Origin: a virus
Lineage: Duplodnaviria > Heunggongvirae > Uroviricota > Caudoviricetes
Virus record (IMG/VR): IMGVR_UViG_2778261417_000006
Reading direction: 5' to 3' (one strand)
Length of the DNA stretch: 7,052 bases
Below are positions 1 to 7,052 of the stretch, one piece after another. Within the stretch, counting starts at the first letter, position 1. The number at the start of each line of letters is the position of its first letter. Under the pieces are notes generated by a model. The model did not search any database and was not told the DNA's origin. It worked only from the letters and a program-made list of their open reading frames with translations. Made by a program: the position numbers and the translations under genes.

Positions 1-130
1 GAATCTGAGGCAGCACCTGGCACGGCTGGGACGGAAGTCGCTGTCGTTCTCAAAATCGGTGGAGCTGCATGACAAAGTCATCGGGCATTATCTGAACATA
101 AAACACTATCAGTAAGTTGGAGTCATTACC
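1..130 (+). mobile_element. IS1 right end, partial and window-truncated (3' end of insB plus terminal inverted repeat)
   Basis: Positions 2-115 translate to [37 protein letters not shown]-stop, the InsB C-terminus as I recall it. The element ends ...CTATCAGTAAGTTGGAGTCATTACC at 130, matching the IS1 terminal repeat. Bases 1-130 are the exact reverse complement of 6923-7052. Confidence 0.93.
2..115 (+). CDS. insB: IS1 transposase InsB, C-terminal fragment (gene continues upstream of the window)
   Basis: Open frame from the window edge to TAA at 113-115; the translation matches the InsB C-terminus from memory. Confidence 0.85.
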
Positions 131-747
131 GGGATCGCGTTCTTAATATCAATGAAACCGCTGATGTATGGTCTTATGCTTACGGTAATAATTTGCTAAC
201 TCTGTCATCAATATATAACCGAAGAATAATGGTTATCTGCCTGGTGTTTGGTTGCCGACAGCAGGAGGCGAGGCTATCCACCTGGGACGAATGGGATTTA
301 AAAAACTGGGTATGGACAGTCCCAAAAGAGCACAGCAAAAACAAGGAGGCTATAGTAAGGCCTGTTCCTGACGGAATAAAACAATGGATCGTTAATCTTT
401 ACGCAGAAACAAAAAATCGCGGTTATGTTGTCGGTTGTGCTTTGCAAAGGGCGACAATAACAGGGGCTGCAAACAGAATATGCAGGCGTCTTGGTCATGA
501 TACTAATGGCTTGTGGTGCATACATGATTTCAGGCGCACATTTTCCACTACGCTTAATGATATGGGGGCGGATCCTTATATTGTCGAACTTCTTTTAGGT
601 CATAAAGTGAAAGGGGTTGCTGGTGTTTACAATAAAAGCAGGCATATAAAGAAAAAACTTGAGGTGCTTAATATGTGGGTTAATTACCTTAATACGATAG
701 CAGGATTTAACAACAACGTTATCGAGCTTAATAAAGAGGTGGTGTGA
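131..747 (+). pseudogene. int: Tyrosine recombinase (P4-type phage integrase), C-terminal catalytic domain only; 5' part interrupted by IS1
   Basis: The frame of the 193..747 ORF stays open back across the IS1 junction at 130/131, with no native start. The translation carries catalytic-domain hallmarks: ARLSTWDEWDL...WTVPKEHSKNK, box II HDFRRTFSTTL, and LLGH...GVAGVY with the presumed catalytic Tyr. About 205 aa are present against roughly 400 expected. Confidence 0.88.
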
Positions 748-748
748 T

Positions 749-1006
749 ATGGCAATTTATTCTCTTGTTGATGAAAACGATTTGCGCACAATGAAGGACA
801 TTGATCGGTTCATTCGTGAAAAAGAGTGCATAGCACTTACCACGCTGGCAAACTCAACACGCTGGAAAATGGAGCAGGCAGGTAAATTCCCGCGACGTAT
901 CAAGATCGGTGAACGTGCTGCAGGGTATCGACTTTCAGAGGTTCAGGCATGGATCCGTGGTGAGTGGCATCCTGGATGGAAACCTGGAAAAACAAAACAG
1001 CAATAA
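749..1006 (+). CDS. alpA: AlpA-family phage transcriptional regulator / excisionase-like DNA-binding protein
   Basis: 85 aa. The ATG lies 1 nt after the int stop and has an AGAGG-type SD. The motif IALTTLANSTRWKMEQAGKFPRRIKIGERAAGYRLSEVQAWI fits the AlpA/Xis helix-turn-helix signature (GxFP...W...ev..W). Confidence 0.8.
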   Translation: MAIYSLVDENDLRTMKDIDRFIREKECIALTTLANSTRWKMEQAGKFPRRIKIGERAAGYRLSEVQAWIRGEWHPGWKPGKTKQQ

Positions 1007-1018
1007 CCAGTAAATAAT

Positions 1019-1042
1019 GCCCCTCATCACGAGGGGTTTTTT
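1019..1042 (+). terminator. Rho-independent terminator after alpA
   Basis: Stem CCCCTC (1020-1025), loop ATCAC, stem GAGGGG (1031-1036), then TTTTTT (1037-1042). Confidence 0.75.
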
Positions 1043-1062
1043 GTCTATAAGGTAAAAACGCG

Positions 1063-1641
1063 ATGAATAAAAATATTGCCGTGACGGGCAAGGGGTACGC
1101 TCGTCCAGTGAAAAAATTCTGCGATATTCGTGATCTCGTCGTTCTGCGCTTTGATAGTGTGAACGTTCGTGTGGTGTATCTGAACGGCGATCCGTGGTTT
1201 GTTGCAAAAGATGTTTGTGCTGCGCTGGAACTAACCAATTCGCGTACGGCGTTGCAGATGCTTGATGATGATGAAAAGGGAGTAAATTTAACTTACACCC
1301 CAGGAGGAAATCAGAATATGAGAATTATCTCTGAGTCAGGTTTCTACAAACTAATAGCCCGCAGCCGCAAAGCAACGACGCCTGGCACATTTGCTCATCG
1401 TTTCAGTAACTGGGTATTCAGAAATGTGATACCAGGTATCAGAAAAACGGGGACTTATGGTATCCCGTGGGGTGCATTACAGGATTTTTCCCGCCGTAAA
1501 GAGCAATATCAAATAAGTGCCAGCGAGAAGGGGAGGGAGCTACAGGCATGTAAGCGCAAAAAGCGTGAGCTGGAGGAAGAAGAAAAAACGCTGATACGTG
1601 AATATCAGCCTGAGTTTTACTTTGGTAACCGCATTCAGTGA
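1063..1641 (+). CDS. Bro-N domain protein (phage antirepressor-like) with charged C-terminal tail
   Basis: 192 aa. Residues about 35-140 (VRVVYLNGDPWFVAKDVCAALELTNSRTALQMLDDDEKGV...TPGGNQNMRIISESGFYKLIARSRKATTPGTFAHRFSNWVFRNVIPGIRKTGTY) match the Bro-N consensus closely. The C-terminus is K/R/E-rich and looks coiled-coil-like. Confidence 0.85.
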   Translation: MNKNIAVTGKGYARPVKKFCDIRDLVVLRFDSVNVRVVYLNGDPWFVAKDVCAALELTNSRTALQMLDDDEKGVNLTYTPGGNQNMRIISESGFYKLIARSRKATTPGTFAHRFSNWVFRNVIPGIRKTGTYGIPWGALQDFSRRKEQYQISASEKGRELQACKRKKRELEEEEKTLIREYQPEFYFGNRIQ

Positions 1642-1650
1642 CAAAACAAA

Positions 1651-1671
1651 GGCGACCGCAAAAGGGTCGCC
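1651..1671 (-). terminator. Hairpin with T-run on the minus strand; candidate terminator for the leftward unit, convergent with the Bro-N gene
   Basis: GGCGACC (1651-1657), loop GCAAAAG, GGTCGCC (1665-1671). The + strand A-rich tract just upstream (1641-1650) reads as a U-run on the minus strand. Confidence 0.5.
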
Positions 1672-1737: not shown

Positions 1738-1917
1738 TCAGTCAGATTTGGTTCGTTCCAAGGTTTGCAACGAGAGCTTTTTCCTGTGCTCTTTAAGGAA
1801 TTTCTCAAGAGCAAACGAACAAGGTGCGAATCTTTCTGATTCATGTTCATGCGCTATATTTTTGCGTCGTCTCTTACGAGTTGGTGATGGTGTTTTGGTT
1901 GATTCTGTGTCGCTCAT
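1738..1917 (-). CDS. Hypothetical small basic protein, 59 aa (absent from the supplied ORF track)
   Basis: Hand translation of the minus strand gives MSDTESTKTPSPTRKRRRKNIAHEHESERFAPCSFALEKFLKEHRKKLSLQTLERTKSD-stop. It sits 57 bp downstream of the 101-aa minus-strand gene, has an AGGA about 8 nt upstream, and the minus-oriented hairpin lies about 70 bp beyond its stop. Confidence 0.4.
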   Translation of the reverse strand: MSDTESTKTPSPTRKRRRKNIAHEHESERFAPCSFALEKFLKEHRKKLSLQTLERTKSD

Positions 1918-1974: not shown

Positions 1975-2280
1975 CTATTCATGCTCTTTGACCTTGCGTC
2001 GCTGGAGTTCTTCACGCGCGACGGTGACGAGTTGCCCGATCTCCTCGGCTGCTTTGATGCCGATTTGTTCGACCTTAGCCAGGGCATCCAGTGACGACAC
2101 AAGGGGATTTTCTCCGCTGCCTTCTGCTTGGCGGCGGGCTATTTCTCCGCGCATGGCGGTTACGATAAATCCGGCATTGCTTTCACCGTCCAGCTTAACG
2201 GATTCCATCCCTTGCATAACATCTAGTGGGACTCTGACAGTTGTCAGTTGTGATTTTGCGTTTTTGTTAGCCGTTGCCAT
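1975..2280 (-). CDS. Hypothetical 101-aa protein; candidate DNA-binding regulator of the element (possibly ribbon-helix-helix-like)
   Basis: AGGAG SD 8 nt upstream of the ATG. It is transcribed divergently from the rightward operon across a palindromic operator region. The N-terminal segment TTVRVPLDVMQGMESVKL is compatible with a beta-strand plus helix RHH fold, but the family is not recognised with certainty. Confidence 0.5.
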   Translation of the reverse strand: MATANKNAKSQLTTVRVPLDVMQGMESVKLDGESNAGFIVTAMRGEIARRQAEGSGENPLVSSLDALAKVEQIGIKAAEEIGQLVTVAREELQRRKVKEHE

Positions 2281-2301
2281 TTCTGAAACTCCTAATCATC
2301 G

Positions 2302-2379
2302 GTGTGTTTCAGTATACACAAAAAAAGAAATACAAAAAGCCTTGACGTGTGTTTCATGCGCTCATAACATGAAACACAC
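2302..2379. promoter_or_regulatory. Divergent promoter/operator region
   Basis: Perfect inverted repeat GTGTGTTTCATG (2347-2358) / CATGAAACACAC (2368-2379) with a 9-bp spacer. A third half-site GTGTGTTTCA sits at 2302-2311. Candidate + promoter: -35 TTGACG (2342-2347), 17 bp, -10 TAACAT (2365-2370). Candidate minus promoter: -10 TATACT (complement of 2311-2316). Confidence 0.6.
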
Positions 2380-2470
2380 CGAAAGGATTGTTGAAATACA
2401 AAGAGCAACGCCCCGCAGTGCTGGGAACACATACGGGGCGTCTAACCAACAACGTAAACTAGGAGCCGTT

Positions 2471-2668
2471 ATGGTTGCTGTAAATCATATACCACACCTT
2501 GTACACACACAAACGGCCTTTGTGTGGCGTTTTCTGGCACTGAGTGCCGGAGAATCTCAAATCATCCACGTAACCGCCTGGACGGAACGCGAAGCGCGTA
2601 GCCGTTGCCCGTCCGGTTGTGTTGCTGTATTCGCTGCAAAAATCCGCCAGGGAGTGAGTCATGCTTAA
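2471..2668 (+). CDS. Hypothetical protein, 65 aa; likely first gene of the rightward operon
   Basis: AGGAG SD 5 nt upstream of ATG 2471. Its stop overlaps the start of the next ORF by 8 nt. It is the 3' end of the long 1598..2668 stop-free frame in the ORF track. Confidence 0.45.
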   Translation: MVAVNHIPHLVHTQTAFVWRFLALSAGESQIIHVTAWTEREARSRCPSGCVAVFAAKIRQGVSHA

Positions 2669-3276: not shown

Positions 3277-3576
3277 ATGGAAATGAAAAATTCTGGCTTT
3301 ATTGCCAGCGGCCCCGCTCGACCTGAATTTATGAACGGCGATATTTACCGCGATAAATACGGCGGCACGGTAACGATTAAAGGCGTGGCAGAACGGCGCA
3401 TCACTTACCGCCGTGAGGGGTATAGCTATGACTGCGTGATGCCTGTTTATCAGTTCCGGCGTGATTTTTCCCTGGTATATGCCGCACCCCGCAGTAAGCC
3501 CATCAGCAGGGAAAAAGCGTGGGGAAATATCCAGAAAATGAAAACCATGATTAACGGATTCAGAGGTAAAAAATGA
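3277..3576 (+). CDS. Hypothetical protein, 99 aa; immediately upstream of and overlapping the primase-like gene
   Basis: GAGGA SD; ATGA start/stop overlap with the 584-aa ORF. Confidence 0.55.
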   Translation: MEMKNSGFIASGPARPEFMNGDIYRDKYGGTVTIKGVAERRITYRREGYSYDCVMPVYQFRRDFSLVYAAPRSKPISREKAWGNIQKMKTMINGFRGKK

Positions 3577-5327
3577 AACTGGCACCGAACGTAAAACAGC
3601 AGTCACGCGGCATAAAACACAAAGGAACAGAAGTAATTATTTTTGCGGGTAGTGATGCCTGGGCACACGCGAAACAATGGCAGGAACATGATGCGCGTAT
3701 GGCCGGAGATAATGAGCCTCCTGTGTGGCTTGGGGAGCAGCAGCTATCCGAACTGGATAATCTGCAAATTGTGCCGGAAGGCCGAAAATCAGCACGCATA
3801 TACAGGGCCGGATATCTTGCGCCTGTAATGATAAAGGCGATTGGTCAGAAGCTGGCGGCAGCAGGCGTACAGGATGCAAATTTTTATCCTGAGGGTATGC
3901 ACGGCCAGGAGGTGCAGAACTGGCGCGAATATCTGGCCCGTGAACGCCAGAATCTTTCTGATGGTCTGGTCATTGAGCTTCCGGTAAAGCAAAAGGCGCA
4001 ACTTTCGCAGATGGCGGACAGTGAGCGCGCGCAGTTGCTTGCCGATCGCTTTGATGGCGTTTGCGTACATCCTGAAAGTGAAATCGTTCACGTATGGCGC
4101 GGCGGGGTATGGTGTCCGGTCAGCACAATGGAACTTAGCCGCGAAATGGTGGCGATCTATTCAGAGCACAGGGCCACTTTCAGCAAGCGCGTAATCAATA
4201 ACGCCGTGGAAGCGTTAAAAGTTATTGCCGAACCAATGGGCGAGCCGTCTGGCGATTTGCTGCCGTTCGCCAATGGTGCGCTTGACCTGAAAACGGGGGA
4301 ATTTTCCCCGCACACGCCGGAGAACTGGATCACCACGCACAACGGCATTGAGTACACGCCACCAGCACCAGGGGAGAACATCCGCGATAACGCGCCAAAC
4401 TTTCATAAATGGCTTGAGCACGCAGCCGGAAAAGACCCGCGCAAGATGATGCGTATATGTGCCGCGCTGTACATGATTATGGCGAACCGGTACGACTGGC
4501 AGATGTTTATTGAGGCCACCGGAGACGGCGGGAGCGGTAAAAGTACATTCACACACATAGCCAGCCTTCTGGCAGGGAAACAGAACACGGTAAGCGCTGA
4601 AATGACATCGCTTGATGATGCTGGTGGACGTGCGCAGGTTGTCGGGAGTCGTCTTATCGTCCTGGCTGACCAGCCGAAATATACAGGCGAAGGAACGGGC
4701 ATCAAGAAAATCACAGGCGGCGACCCCGTGGAAATTAACCCGAAATATGAAAAGCGTTTCACGGCGGTAATCAGGGCGGTGGTGCTGGCGACCAACAACA
4801 ACCCGATGATATTCACCGAACGGGCCGGAGGTGTGGCACGTCGTCGCGTGATTTTCCGTTTCGACAATATCGTCAGTGAGGCCGAAAAAGACAGGGAGCT
4901 ACCGGAAAAGATTGCGGCTGAAATCCCCGTTATTATCCGCCGATTGCTGGCGAACTTTACCGACCCTGAGAAGGCACGGGCTTTACTACTGGAACAGCGT
5001 GACGGTGATGAAGCACTGGCAATAAAGCAACAGACGGATCCGGTTATTGAGTTTTGCCAGTTCCTGAATTTTCTGGAGGAAGCGCGCGGCCTGATGATGG
5101 GTGGCGGTGGTGATTCAGTGAAGTACACGACCAGGAACAGCCTTTACCGCGTCTATCTGGCGTTTATGGCATACGCGGGCAGGAGCAAACCGCTAAACGT
5201 GGCTGAGTTCAGCAAGGCCATGAAGCCAGCGGCGAAAGTTTACGGGCATGAATATATTACGCGAAAAGTTAAGGGAGTAACGCAGACCAACGCAATTACA
5301 ACAGACGATTGCGACGCGTTTTTATAA
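3573..5327 (+). CDS. Replication protein: P4-family primase C-terminal domain / D5-like SF3 helicase
   Basis: 584 aa. Walker A GDGGSGKST is encoded at 4521-4547. The block LIVLADQP...KKITGGDPVEINPKYEKRFTAVIRAVVLATNNNPMIFTERAGGVARRRVIFRF resembles the phage/plasmid primase P4-family C-terminal signature. GAGG SD 6 nt upstream. Confidence 0.82.
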   Translation: MKLAPNVKQQSRGIKHKGTEVIIFAGSDAWAHAKQWQEHDARMAGDNEPPVWLGEQQLSELDNLQIVPEGRKSARIYRAGYLAPVMIKAIGQKLAAAGVQDANFYPEGMHGQEVQNWREYLARERQNLSDGLVIELPVKQKAQLSQMADSERAQLLADRFDGVCVHPESEIVHVWRGGVWCPVSTMELSREMVAIYSEHRATFSKRVINNAVEALKVIAEPMGEPSGDLLPFANGALDLKTGEFSPHTPENWITTHNGIEYTPPAPGENIRDNAPNFHKWLEHAAGKDPRKMMRICAALYMIMANRYDWQMFIEATGDGGSGKSTFTHIASLLAGKQNTVSAEMTSLDDAGGRAQVVGSRLIVLADQPKYTGEGTGIKKITGGDPVEINPKYEKRFTAVIRAVVLATNNNPMIFTERAGGVARRRVIFRFDNIVSEAEKDRELPEKIAAEIPVIIRRLLANFTDPEKARALLLEQRDGDEALAIKQQTDPVIEFCQFLNFLEEARGLMMGGGGDSVKYTTRNSLYRVYLAFMAYAGRSKPLNVAEFSKAMKPAAKVYGHEYITRKVKGVTQTNAITTDDCDAFL

Positions 5328-5340
5328 TTTTTTGTAAAAG

Positions 5341-5564
5341 CCATCTACCCCATCTACCTGAACGAAATAAACGCATATTATTCAACATGATAAGTGGGTA
5401 TAGGGCTAGGTAGAAGGCTAATAAAAGCTCTCTACCTCTTCTACCTGATTTTATCAGTTTCAGGTAGCAGGGTAGACGGCAGGTAGAGGAGTCAAAAAAG
5501 CTATCTACCCGCTGAAAGCGGCGCCATTACTGACATGATGAGCATTCGGGTAGATGGGTAGAGG
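5341..5564. repeat. Iteron cluster; candidate origin of replication
   Basis: Eleven copies of the pentamer CTACC/GGTAG in 224 bp. Tandem CCATCTACC x2 at 5341-5358 is mirrored by GGGTAGATGGGTAGAGG at 5548-5564. Other copies: 5409-5414, 5431-5436, 5440-5445, 5463-5467, 5471-5475, 5482-5486, 5504-5509. An AT-rich core lies at 5359-5394. Confidence 0.65.
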
Positions 5565-5613: not shown

Positions 5614-5928
5614 ATGCGCATACATAAAAATCACTTAACAAACATGCCAGCCGAAAACATGAATCAGGGGCGACAAATGACCAAAATTCGCAGAGACAGA
5701 ACACAGGCAAAATATAAAGCGTTAGACATGACAGAGCTTTCCTTAAAGGTGGCAATCAAAGCGATAGACCACCACACACGGGCAGGATACGCGAAGGAAC
5801 ATCCCGACCTGATAAGCGCATTCATGACCACAGCAGCGGCAAACTTTGCCACGCTGACAGAACGGGAGATTGCCGAAGCGGAACAGGTGACAACCATCAA
5901 TGTTAAAACCGGAGAGCAGACAGCATGA
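5614..5928 (+). CDS. Hypothetical protein (104 aa from ATG 5614; alternative start at 5677 gives 83 aa)
   Basis: Its stop overlaps the SSB start (ATGA). The 5677 start has an AGGGG SD at 6-nt spacing; the 5614 start follows a G8 tract. Confidence 0.55.
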   Translation: MRIHKNHLTNMPAENMNQGRQMTKIRRDRTQAKYKALDMTELSLKVAIKAIDHHTRAGYAKEHPDLISAFMTTAAANFATLTEREIAEAEQVTTINVKTGEQTA

Positions 5929-6347
5929 CAGCACAGATAGCGGCTTACGGGCGGCTGGTGGCTGACCCGCAGTTAAAGACCACCAGCAAAGGGACACAAA
6001 TGGCGATGGCGAGTATGGCGGTTCCCCTGCCGTGCAGCCAGGCAGATGACGGAACGGCGACGATGTGGTTATCCGTCCTGGCGTTTGGCAGACAGGCCGA
6101 CGCACTGGCAAAACACCACAAAGGCGAACTGGTGAGCGTGGCGGGTAACATGCAGGTAAGCCAGTGGACAGGCCAGAACGGCGAAACGCGGCGGGGCTGG
6201 CAGGTTATCGCAGACAGCGTAATCAGTGCGCGAACGGCGCGACCGGGCGGCAAAAAAGGCCAGCAGGGGCAGGCCACTGACGCACTGAACAGGGCAAAAC
6301 AACAGTCGGGGAATGATGATCCGTACGGCGATAATATACCGTTTTAA
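5925..6347 (+). CDS. ssb: Single-stranded DNA-binding protein (SSB family)
   Basis: 140 aa. The OB-fold region aligns with E. coli SSB by eye (GRL.ADP...W..V.AFG..A......KG..V...G......W). The C-terminus ends ...DDPYGDNIPF, resembling the conserved SSB tail DDDIPF. Confidence 0.85.
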   Translation: MTAQIAAYGRLVADPQLKTTSKGTQMAMASMAVPLPCSQADDGTATMWLSVLAFGRQADALAKHHKGELVSVAGNMQVSQWTGQNGETRRGWQVIADSVISARTARPGGKKGQQGQATDALNRAKQQSGNDDPYGDNIPF

Positions 6348-6564: not shown

Positions 6565-6927
6565 ATGGTTGATTTATATTCGCCTACACAGCTTGTGCAG
6601 GTGGCTAATGCTGAAGATGTGCAAAAAAAATTAAATGCGTTGTTTACCAGTTTGTTTTTCACTCGCTCGGTAATGTTTGAATCGAGAGACATTATTCTTG
6701 ATACGATCGACGATCCAAATATCCCGATCGCGGCGTTTTGCTCTCCTATGGTGGGCAGTAAAGTTTCACGAGATGAGGGATACGAATCAAAAACAATTCG
6801 TCCAGGTTATATGAAGCCGAAAAGCAGCATTGATCCAAATAAGTTAGCTGTGCGCCCTGCTGGTGTGTCACCTGAGCAATACAATGCTTTTGGGGCGCGT
6901 AATATTAAAGTTAAACAGGCGAGGTAA
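6565..6927 (+). pseudogene. Lambda gpE-like major capsid protein, N-terminal about 120 codons only; truncated by IS1
   Basis: The translation from 6565 (MVDLYSPTQLVQVANAEDVQKKLNALFTSLFFTRS...FCSPMVGSKVSRDEGYESKTIRPGYMKPK...) resembles the lambda E N-terminus as I recall it (LFLRLFFRES...YVSPIVSGEVIRSRGG...TPGYVKPK). AAGAGG SD 6 nt upstream. The stop TAA (6925-6927) is supplied by the IS1 terminal sequence GGTAATGA. An alternative start at 6559 (MSMVDLY...) has no SD spacing. Confidence 0.65.
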
Positions 6928-7052
6928 TGACTCCAACTTACTGATAGTGTTTTATGTTCAGATAATGCCCGATGACTTTGTCATGCAGCTCCACCGATTT
7001 TGAGAACGACAGCGACTTCCGTCCCAGCCGTGCCAGGTGCTGCCTCAGATTC
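6923..7052 (-). mobile_element. IS1 right end, partial and window-truncated, inverted relative to the copy at 1-130
   Basis: Exact reverse complement of 1-130; begins GGTAATGACTCCAACTTACTGATAG. Confidence 0.93.
6938..7051 (-). CDS. insB: IS1 transposase InsB, C-terminal fragment (gene continues beyond the window)
   Basis: Mirror image of 2-115; the stop is the complement of 6938-6940. Confidence 0.85.

What the first reader, a model, noticed from the sequence alone, without database searches (positions are those of the whole stretch)
1063..1641. Bro-N domain protein placed between alpA and the regulatory switch
Bro-N proteins are usually antirepressors or phage-interaction modules. Its position next to the island regulator suggests a role in sensing or manipulating a helper phage, or in an accessory or defence function. 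It has no room for its own promoter, since the alpA terminator ends only 20 bp before its ATG, which hints at read-through or attenuation control.
Basis: partly seen in the sequence, partly recalled or inferred. Interest (0 to 1): 0.5.

Follow-up and report, generated by a model that had tools for sequence, protein, structure and literature searches.

The report
Bro-N gene of a phage satellite
The ORF is a real, conserved Bro-N-domain gene at the already described "Bro zone" position (after integrase and alpA) of an E. coli phage satellite; its function is still untested, and the only new points are comparative details about how it may be expressed.

Summary
ORF 1063-1641 (192 aa) matches Pfam Bro-N (E 4.9e-20, residues 34-124). 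A hairpin plus T6 (1019-1042) lies between alpA and its ATG, and no sigma-70-like site was found in between.

The window is a fragment of a phage-inducible chromosomal island (PICI), cut at both ends by IS1. An island whose Bro region is 100% identical sits inside the portal gene of a lambdoid prophage. [quoted passage not shown]

The protein is a Bro-N domain plus a conserved helical C-terminal module of about 60 aa that has no Pfam family. This full-length family is almost confined to int-alpA islands of Enterobacterales, Aeromonas and bee-gut Orbaceae. There it is usually translationally coupled to alpA or to an intervening orfX, with no terminator.

All seven E. coli HE-PICIs examined carry the terminator, with a compensatory stem change. 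Bro stays 85-95% identical while the islands' own repressor and operators differ completely.

Best reading: a trans-acting regulator, expressed by read-through from int-alpA, probably by the helper's Q-antiterminated late transcription. The labels "antirepressor" and "defence" are unsupported. Low novelty.

The parts
1..130 (.). IS1 terminal 130 bp. It is the inverted copy of the IS1 end at 6923-7052 and truncates the integrase gene.
   Evidence: Read from the sequence. Island homology in other genomes starts at window 131.
131..747 (+). 3' part of a tyrosine integrase gene. The N-terminal half is lost to IS1.
   Evidence: Pfam Phage_integrase E 4.7e-15. The intact 1242-nt gene is present in L001 at 12500-13741.
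749..1006 (+). alpA (85 aa), an AlpA-family HTH regulator/excisionase.
   Evidence: Pfam Phage_AlpA E 5.4e-14. PDB 8c3t 'AlpA family phage regulatory protein' E 1.3e-7.
1019..1042 (+). Intrinsic-terminator-like hairpin (7-bp stem, 5-nt loop) followed by T6, 12 nt after the alpA stop codon.
   Evidence: It is conserved in 7 of 7 E. coli HE-PICIs across three alpA alleles, with the compensatory change CCCCTC/GAGGGG to CCCCGC/GCGGGG.
1049..1052 (+). Shine-Dalgarno-like AAGG, 10 nt upstream of the ATG.
   Evidence: Read from the sequence. AGG is kept in all aligned alleles.
1063..1641 (+). bro: 192-aa Bro-N protein, same length as RefSeq WP_001038675.1.
1162..1434 (+). Bro-N domain (residues 34-124).
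1219..1338 (+). Swapped variable cassette inside the Bro-N domain (residues 53-92; helix 60-65 plus beta-hairpin 72-89). Three types were seen among E. coli alleles.
   Evidence: dS is saturated (above 1) and dN about 0.35 here, against dS 0.1-0.5 and dN 0.01-0.06 in the flanks. Alignments. A 105-nt piece recurs at 91.7% identity in unrelated islands.
1450..1638 (+). Family-specific C-terminal module (residues 130-192), with two long helices at 136-155 and 160-181.
   Evidence: AlphaFold2. No Pfam family even at E 10. Conserved down to relatives of 50-60% identity. dN/dS about 0.07-0.1.
1651..1671 (-). Terminator of the leftward (minus-strand) operon. Its T-rich tail (1650-1641) abuts the bro stop codon. 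There is no T-run on the + strand.
   Evidence: and the sequence. The same hairpin is present in a Bro-less PICI, L002.
1738..1917 (-). 59-aa ORF, second gene of the leftward operon.
   Evidence: phrog_21027 E 5.2e-15.
1975..2280 (-). YlcI/YnfO-family protein (101 aa), the likely island repressor.
   Evidence: NCBIfam YlcI_YnfO_N E 1.6e-17. Its N-terminal region and the operators both differ completely between the islands compared.
2299..2382 (.). Switch region. Three copies of GGTGTGTTTCA (two direct, one inverted) surround a + strand promoter-like site, TTGACG-17-TAACAT, at 2342-2370.
2471..2668 (+). Icd-like protein (65 aa), first gene of the rightward operon that leads to DUF4222 and the primase.
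   Evidence: NCBIfam phage_ICD_like E 1.2e-17..

Best explanation
The ORF is the 'Bro-zone' gene of a helper-embedded phage-inducible chromosomal island (HE-PICI). In this window the island is decayed and cut by IS1 at both ends. The protein has a Bro-N domain with a winged-helix/APSES-like DNA-binding-type fold. It also has a family-specific helical C-terminal module that probably mediates oligomerisation or partner binding. The gene has no promoter of its own and is transcribed as the distal gene of the int-alpA unit. In E. coli HE-PICIs a conserved intrinsic terminator between alpA and bro keeps it off under ordinary transcription. In the intact configuration it would be read by the helper prophage's terminator-resistant, Q-modified late transcription, which enters the island through int, and by any leak through the terminator. 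Its target is something shared among islands, such as the helper or co-resident phages or the host, and not the island's own immunity switch. How firm each step is: identity, domain, synteny, terminator conservation, purifying selection and the lack of co-variation with the switch are shown here; co-transcription is inferred from comparative anatomy; Q-dependent read-through, DNA binding and action in trans are inferred. Rough likelihoods: identity above 0.95; expression by read-through from upstream about 0.6; trans-acting nucleic-acid-binding regulator, as opposed to a classical protein-sequestering antirepressor, about 0.4.
Confidence: 0.45

Rival explanations
1. It is a classical antirepressor. 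Bro binds and inactivates the CI-type repressor of the helper or of co-resident prophages, inducing them or locking in their induction, as the Gifsy and P22-type antirepressors do.
For: Source names and PHROG families call the relatives 'antirepressor'. Trans-acting antirepressor crosstalk between prophages is documented (PMC3121763, listed). The lack of co-variation with the island's own switch fits an external target.
Against: The names are propagated annotation, and no experimental work on this family was found. The ANT/KilAC, AntA and P22_AR domains of characterised antirepressors are absent. There is no LexA box. In a helper-embedded island the gene would be transcribed after the helper is already induced.
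Confidence: 0.25
2. It regulates the island itself. Bro antagonises the YlcI/YnfO-like repressor or binds the switch operators to start island replication.
For: It lies next to the switch and converges on the leftward ylcI operon. YlcI-like proteins keep a conserved GES..FIV.A..GEI.RRQ motif that could be a common docking surface.
Against: Bro is 85-95% identical across islands with unrelated operator triplets and divergent YlcI alleles. PICIs with the same kind of switch exist without bro (L002).
Confidence: 0.1
3. It is an interference or defence effector. Bro blocks the helper or competing phages, for example by repressing their late or capsid genes as PLE CapR does, or by abortive infection as BstA-type proteins do.
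For: PMC10111431 cites PLE CapR, a Bro-network protein, as a repressor of the helper capsid promoter. The island carries its own lambda E-like capsid, decoration and TerS genes, so repression of helper counterparts would make sense. The swapped helix-plus-hairpin cassette looks like a specificity determinant.
Against: No PADLOC model matches Bro or its neighbours. No nuclease, toxin or NTPase domain is present. There are no experimental data.
Confidence: 0.1
4. In this particular copy the gene is silent cargo of a dead island.
For: int and the capsid gene are cut by IS1. A terminator precedes bro, and no promoter is predicted.
Against: The ORF is intact and the 1007-1700 query that contains it is 100% identical to copies in intact islands. 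The family is under purifying selection. alpA and any promoter within the retained part of int are still present.
Confidence: 0.1

Closest known systems
'Bro zone' genes of Gram-negative PICIs and helper-embedded PICIs (Tommasini, Mageeney & Williams 2023, PMC10111431)
   Same: The gene order is the same: int, alpA, Bro-network gene, immunity/Icd region, DUF4222-primase-SSB, then captured late genes. Integration is inside a lambdoid late gene and co-oriented with it. Segment swapping within Bro genes is also seen here.
   Different: The main-text passages retrieved by term searches of that paper do not mention the alpA-bro terminator, its restriction to the E. coli helper-embedded islands sampled here, or the lack of co-variation with the switch; the full text and supplements were not read. 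The function remains uncharacterised both there and here.
Satellite P4 vis(orf88)-eta/kil arrangement
   Same: A gene directly downstream of the alpA homologue, translationally coupled to it according to PMC10111431. Relatives of this Bro in other genera show the same coupling.
   Different: There is no detectable sequence similarity between this Bro and P4 Eta. No C4/isrK-type immunity RNA was found in the window. In the window a terminator replaces the coupling.
Phage 'Ant' antirepressors with a Bro-N N-terminus (PHROGs 130, 2899, 245; for example phi11 Gp07, which is Bro-N plus KilA-C)
   Same: They share the Bro-N domain at 30-60% identity over residues 25-133.
   Different: Those proteins carry ANT/KilAC or other C-terminal domains. 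This one has a distinct helical module of about 60 aa that is almost confined to int-alpA islands.
Baculovirus BRO proteins / CpGV Orf22 N-terminal domain (PDB 4ye7)
   Different: Sequence identity is 16%, the host is a eukaryotic virus, and the C-terminal parts are unrelated.
PLE CapR (Vibrio satellite repressor of the helper capsid gene)
   Same: It is a satellite-encoded Bro-network protein that acts in trans on the helper (as cited in PMC10111431). It serves as a functional analogy for the preferred reading.
   Different: CapR was not compared directly here. PMC10111431 places it in the Bro network through other domains, not through Bro-N.

Membership tests
Pfam Bro-N (PF02498) | Profile match above the gathering score that covers the whole domain | tested here: met
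   72.4 bits against 25.6, profile positions 1-96 of 96, residues 34-124.
Pfam Bro-N (PF02498) | Bro-N fold | tested here: met
Bro zone of GN-PICI / HE-PICI (PMC10111431) | A Bro-network gene located after int-alpA and before the primase/SSB replication zone | tested here: met
   Gene order in the window and in L001, L003, L004 and L090-L093.
Bro zone of GN-PICI / HE-PICI (PMC10111431) | [quoted passage not shown] | tested here: inconclusive
   Met in the relative with an identical Bro region, L001 (portal gene split at 12351 and 23197). It cannot be tested in the window, because IS1 replaces both ends.
Phage antirepressors (Ant/KilAC, AntA/AntB, P22 Ant) | Presence of an ANT/KilAC, AntA or P22_AR domain | tested here: not met
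   Only Bro-N was found. The C-terminal 68 aa match no Pfam family at E up to 10.
Phage antirepressors (Ant/KilAC, AntA/AntB, P22 Ant) | Binds and inactivates a phage repressor | not testable with these tools
   This needs interaction and induction assays.
Phage antirepressors (Gifsy type) | LexA-controlled expression | tested here: not met
   No LexA-box-like site lies near int, alpA or bro.
P4 Eta/Kil | Sequence homology to Eta | tested here: not met
   BLASTP best E 0.54.
P4 Eta/Kil | Embedded CI/seqA-type immunity RNA (Rfam C4, isrK) | tested here: not met
   No Rfam match in the window at E up to 1 apart from a chance SR1 hit.
Known anti-phage defence systems (PADLOC-DB v2) | Match to a defence-protein model | tested here: not met
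   No family for Bro or for six neighbouring ORFs.
Rho-independent terminator (feature at 1019-1042) | GC-rich hairpin directly followed by a U-run on the transcribed strand | tested here: met
   7-bp stem with 5 GC pairs, 5-nt loop, T6. Conserved with a compensatory change.
Rho-independent terminator (feature at 1019-1042) | Terminates transcription in vivo, and is bypassed by Q-modified RNA polymerase | not testable with these tools
   This needs Term-seq or reporter assays.

The most novel reading that the evidence does not exclude
The alpA-bro terminator may act as a sensor of Q antitermination that is specific to helper-embedded islands. Only terminator-resistant late transcription from the helper would pass it. 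That transcription would express Bro. Because no + strand terminator follows bro, it would also run antisense through the convergent orf59-ylcI repressor operon. Transcriptional interference would then flip the island's switch. This would be a purely cis-acting induction mechanism for a satellite, and Bro would be a co-expressed trans effector on the helper.
Probability: 0.15. Interest if true: 0.6.

Novelty: already known. Interest (0 to 1): 0.25.

Why it matters
Bro-N proteins are among the commonest uncharacterised genes of phages and satellites, and most are labelled 'antirepressor' without evidence. This case adds nothing categorically new. The gene is annotated in RefSeq, and its position in PICIs is published. 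The comparative results do narrow the question in three ways. First, a satellite-specific subfamily is defined: Bro-N plus a conserved helical tail. Second, its target is probably not the island's own switch. Third, in helper-embedded islands it sits behind a conserved terminator that only antiterminated transcription should pass. These are cheap, direct hypotheses for anyone who works on HE-PICI induction.

Tried and rejected
- **Immunity RNAs:** an Rfam scan for the C4/isrK-type immunity RNAs reported in some Bro zones found none.
- **Solved structures by sequence:** only chance TonB hits for Bro.
- **Defence systems:** PADLOC gave no hit for Bro or its neighbours.
- **NCBIfam:** no family for Bro.
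- **Capture from the helper:** I tested whether Bro is a copy of the helper's own late-region 'antirepressor N-terminal domain' protein (L003 269-838). There is no similarity.
- **P4 Eta homology:** none. The window's Icd-like ORF also gave no BLASTP alignment to P4 Eta.
- **AlpA as antiterminator:** I asked whether the island's AlpA could itself be a processive antiterminator like P. aeruginosa AlpA (PMC7969949, PMC9371919). A PDB sequence search with the window's AlpA found only 8c3t, an 'AlpA family phage regulatory protein'; none of the other three hits is named AlpA. Homology is therefore not supported, and the idea was dropped as untestable here.
- **LexA control:** no box.
- **Own promoter overlapping the hairpin:** the hexamer TATAAG at 1047-1052 is not conserved. 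It reads TGTGAG in other alleles, and as a -10 it would leave no leader for the Shine-Dalgarno sequence.
- **AFDB50 fold search:** the library was not available.
- **Source locus:** no complete E. coli genome holds either IS1 junction.

Full report
**1. What is in the window**

The 7052-bp window begins and ends with the same 130-bp IS1 terminus in inverted orientation (1-130 and 6923-7052). Between the two IS1 ends lies one co-linear set of genes:
- the 3' part of a tyrosine integrase (to 747);
- alpA (749-1006);
- the ORF in question (1063-1641);
- a leftward pair, orf59 (1738-1917) and a YlcI/YnfO-family gene (1975-2280);
- an intergenic switch;
- a rightward operon that starts with an Icd-like gene (2471-2668) and runs through small ORFs, DUF4222, a D5_N/DUF5906 primase (3573-5327) and SSB (5925-6347);
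- the first 122 codons of a lambda E-like major capsid gene, cut by the second IS1.

No complete E. coli genome in the collection holds either IS1 junction. The window therefore looks like a short-read contig bounded by repeats.

**2.

The ORF is 192 aa and matches Pfam Bro-N over the whole profile (E 4.9e-20). It also matches PHROG 2593 (E 3.8e-85).

The hairpin GCCCCTC/GAGGGGT plus T6 occupies 1019-1042. It starts 12 nt after the alpA stop codon and ends 20 nt before the ATG. The consensus scan finds no sigma-70-like site on the + strand upstream of bro.

The gene is under purifying selection. Against five E. coli alleles, dN/dS is about 0.1 for residues 1-52 and 93-192.

**3. What element this is**

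A 694-bp query around the gene (1007-1700) matches 380 of 5426 complete E. coli genomes. In strain CFSAN018748 the match is 100% identical and the island is intact. It lies between two fragments of the portal gene of a lambdoid prophage. It is co-oriented with that prophage's Q, lysis, terminase and portal genes. Downstream it continues with capsid, decoration, HTH and TerS genes.

Six further E. coli islands that carry this Bro sit in portal or large-terminase genes.

This is the helper-embedded PICI described by Tommasini, Mageeney and Williams (PMC10111431). They also describe four ordered zones, namely Integration (int, AlpA), Bro, Replication and Late. They hypothesise that helper late transcription continues into the island. 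Other papers list BRO proteins among PICI accessory genes without functional data. The position of the gene is therefore already known.

**4. The protein**

- **Model.** AlphaFold2 with a 62-sequence alignment gives mean pLDDT 82.9. It shows a beta-sheet/helix Bro-N domain (residues 26-129) followed by two long helices (136-155 and 160-181).
- **C-terminal module.** The last 60 aa or so match no Pfam family even at E 10 and no PDB sequence.
- **Distribution of the Bro-N domain.** Among 1.84 billion representatives, 24,598 match at E up to 0.001.
- **Distribution of the full-length protein.** About four of the 150 listed representatives extend through the C-terminal module. Phage genomes match essentially only residues 25-133; the four records with at least 80% coverage are Paenibacillus phages at 38-40% identity.

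The full-length architecture is thus a narrow subfamily.

**5. Where that subfamily lives**

A scan of one genome per species returned 26 loci with near-full-length relatives. The genera include Providencia, Aeromonas, Leclercia, Yersinia, Kosakonia, Enterobacter, Xenorhabdus, Rouxiella, Lonsdalea, Budvicia, Serratia, Proteus, Gilliamella and Frischella.
- In 24 of the 26 an AlpA-like ORF lies upstream on the same strand.
- In 23 of the 26 an integrase lies further upstream.
- YlcI-like (minus strand), Icd-like, DUF4222 or primase genes are detected downstream of bro in 16 of the 26.
- 10 of the 24 scanned have a tRNA or tmRNA gene just upstream of int, which indicates ordinary chromosomal integration.

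In seven of these loci, and in two further metagenomic or genomic places, bro starts between -20 and +18 nt from the alpA stop codon. In about thirteen loci a conserved ORF of roughly 140 aa (orfX) fills the gap. It overlaps or abuts the alpA stop codon and ends 6-14 nt before bro in most of them. My hairpin-plus-T-run scan found nothing between alpA and bro in these loci, apart from one weak site inside an ORF in L024. Two Proteus loci have a 122-128-nt AT-rich spacer that could hold a promoter.

Co-transcription with alpA is therefore the rule for the family.

**6. The terminator**

All seven E. coli HE-PICIs examined have the hairpin and T6 between alpA and bro. This holds across three unrelated alpA alleles. 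The stem is CCCCTC/GAGGGG in the portal-type islands and CCCCGC/GCGGGG in the terminase-type islands, which is a compensatory double change.

Downstream of the T-run the sequence is conserved. The only -10-like hexamer of the window (TATAAG) reads TGTGAG in the other alleles, while the AGG of the Shine-Dalgarno sequence is kept. This argues for a ribosome-binding site and against a promoter.

In the intact island the scan lists no other + strand terminator-like site between the end of the helper's portal fragment and the alpA stop. A weak 5-pair site lies at the very start of the portal fragment.

After bro there is no + strand terminator. The hairpin at 1651-1671 has its T-tail on the minus strand and ends the leftward operon.

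**7. What Bro is unlikely to act on**

Each island has its own triplet of operator-like repeats around the rightward promoter:
- GGTGTGTTTCA in the window;
- GTGGCTGACA, CTGGAATCCA, GTGTAAGACA and others elsewhere.

The YlcI-like protein is correspondingly divergent, at 8-68% identity. Bro stays 85-95% identical. PICIs with the same kind of switch also exist without bro. The target of Bro is therefore probably common to these islands, meaning the helper or other phages, or the host.

Variation within Bro is concentrated in residues 53-92, a helix plus a beta-hairpin. Three cassette types occur there, with saturated synonymous divergence. A 105-nt piece of the window's type recurs at 91.7% identity inside decayed, chimeric Bro-zone ORFs of chromosomal PICIs. 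This matches the segment swapping reported in PMC10111431.

**8. Most likely mechanism**

What is shown: identity, synteny, the conserved terminator, selection, and the lack of co-variation with the switch.

What is inferred:
- bro is the distal gene of the int-alpA transcription unit;
- in helper-embedded islands the terminator blocks ordinary transcription, while the helper's Q-modified late transcription reads through it;
- Bro then acts in trans as a nucleic-acid-binding regulator.

The rivals are a protein-sequestering antirepressor, a regulator of the island's own switch, an interference or defence effector, and a silent gene in this decayed copy. They are scored separately in the report sections.

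The database label 'antirepressor' has no support beyond naming. No ANT/KilAC/AntA/P22_AR domain is present. There is no LexA box, no PADLOC hit, and no similarity to P4 Eta or to the helper's own late-region antirepressor-like protein.

**9. Verdict**

This is a correct but ordinary observation: an annotated gene at a published position in a published element type. The small additions are:
- the satellite-specific subfamily definition;
- the conserved terminator in the helper-embedded E. coli islands, against tight coupling elsewhere;
- the lack of co-variation with the island switch;
- the swapped cassette.

The most novel reading that the evidence still allows is that the terminator makes Bro expression, and antisense transcription of the repressor operon, conditional on helper Q antitermination. 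It is testable, but nothing here shows it.

Noticed in passing
window 1-130 and 6923-7052: The same 130-bp IS1 terminus lies in inverted orientation at both ends. It cuts the integrase gene (island homology starts at 131) and the lambda E-like capsid gene (homology ends at 6922). No complete E. coli genome has either junction, so the window is probably a short-read contig bounded by repeats.
   Followed up: partly
L001 11470-23970 (E. coli CFSAN018748): The island with the identical Bro region sits inside the portal gene of a lambdoid prophage. Portal fragments lie at 11470-12351 and 23197-23970. The island carries its own major capsid, head decoration, HTH and small terminase genes, next to the helper's own copies.
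   Followed up: partly
window 2299-2382; L003 5910-6103; L004 5913-6108; L090 3638-3836; L092 4096-4293: Each island has its own triplet of operator-like repeats of 10-11 nt around the rightward promoter. Where the three copies could be placed (window) they are two direct and one inverted. Each island also has a matching divergent YlcI/YnfO-family N-terminus. This looks like a set of immunity types with YlcI-like proteins as the repressors.
   Followed up: partly
window 5330-5560: There are many short repeats of the type CTACC/GGTAG(A/G) in the gap between the primase gene and the next ORF, seen by eye. They look like replication-origin iterons.
   Followed up: no
L010, L012, L013, L016, L017, L019, L020, L022-L026, L029 (between alpA and bro): A conserved ORF of about 140 aa (motifs PKKHRAR, RLSSGRNY, ERIDE.NPDGIGSH.RYRF) is coupled to alpA upstream and, in most of these loci, to bro downstream. 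Its only Pfam hit is a weak winged-helix match (HTH_91, E 0.19). It is absent from the E. coli helper-embedded islands.
   Followed up: partly
L095 2863-3110 (E. coli THO-008); also H16-H23: In chromosomal PICIs a decayed chimeric ORF follows alpA. It joins an AntA-like N-terminus to a 105-nt piece of this window's Bro variable cassette (91.7% identity to window 1249-1356). These are remnants of Bro-zone shuffling.
   Followed up: partly
L002 5867-7654; L095 3223-4155; L092 3257-3856: RefSeq annotates very long 'Icd-like' ORFs that run antisense across the ylcI-like gene and the switch. They are most likely over-extended calls; the real Icd-like gene is only the last 65 codons or so.
   Followed up: no
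window 977-997 and 1674-1694: Imperfect 21-nt direct repeats (TGGAAACCTGGAAAAACAAAA and TGGGAACAAGGGAAAACAAAA, 81% identical) flank the terminator-bro-terminator cassette. The right-hand copy is also present in a Bro-less PICI (L002). They could be a recombination scar or chance in A-rich sequence.
   Followed up: no
window 1037-1069 versus 2293-2325: The bro 5' region (TTTTTTGTCTATAAGG...) resembles the reverse complement of the ylcI leader/promoter region (TTTTTTGTGTATACTG...), at 73% over 33 nt. The significance is unknown.
   Followed up: no
L006 6679-7443; L020 715-1557; L024 3118-3960: Some relatives carry a second Bro-network gene (AntA/ANT-type, 254-280 aa) directly before or after the Bro-N gene in the same operon. 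The Bro zone can therefore hold several such genes.
   Followed up: no
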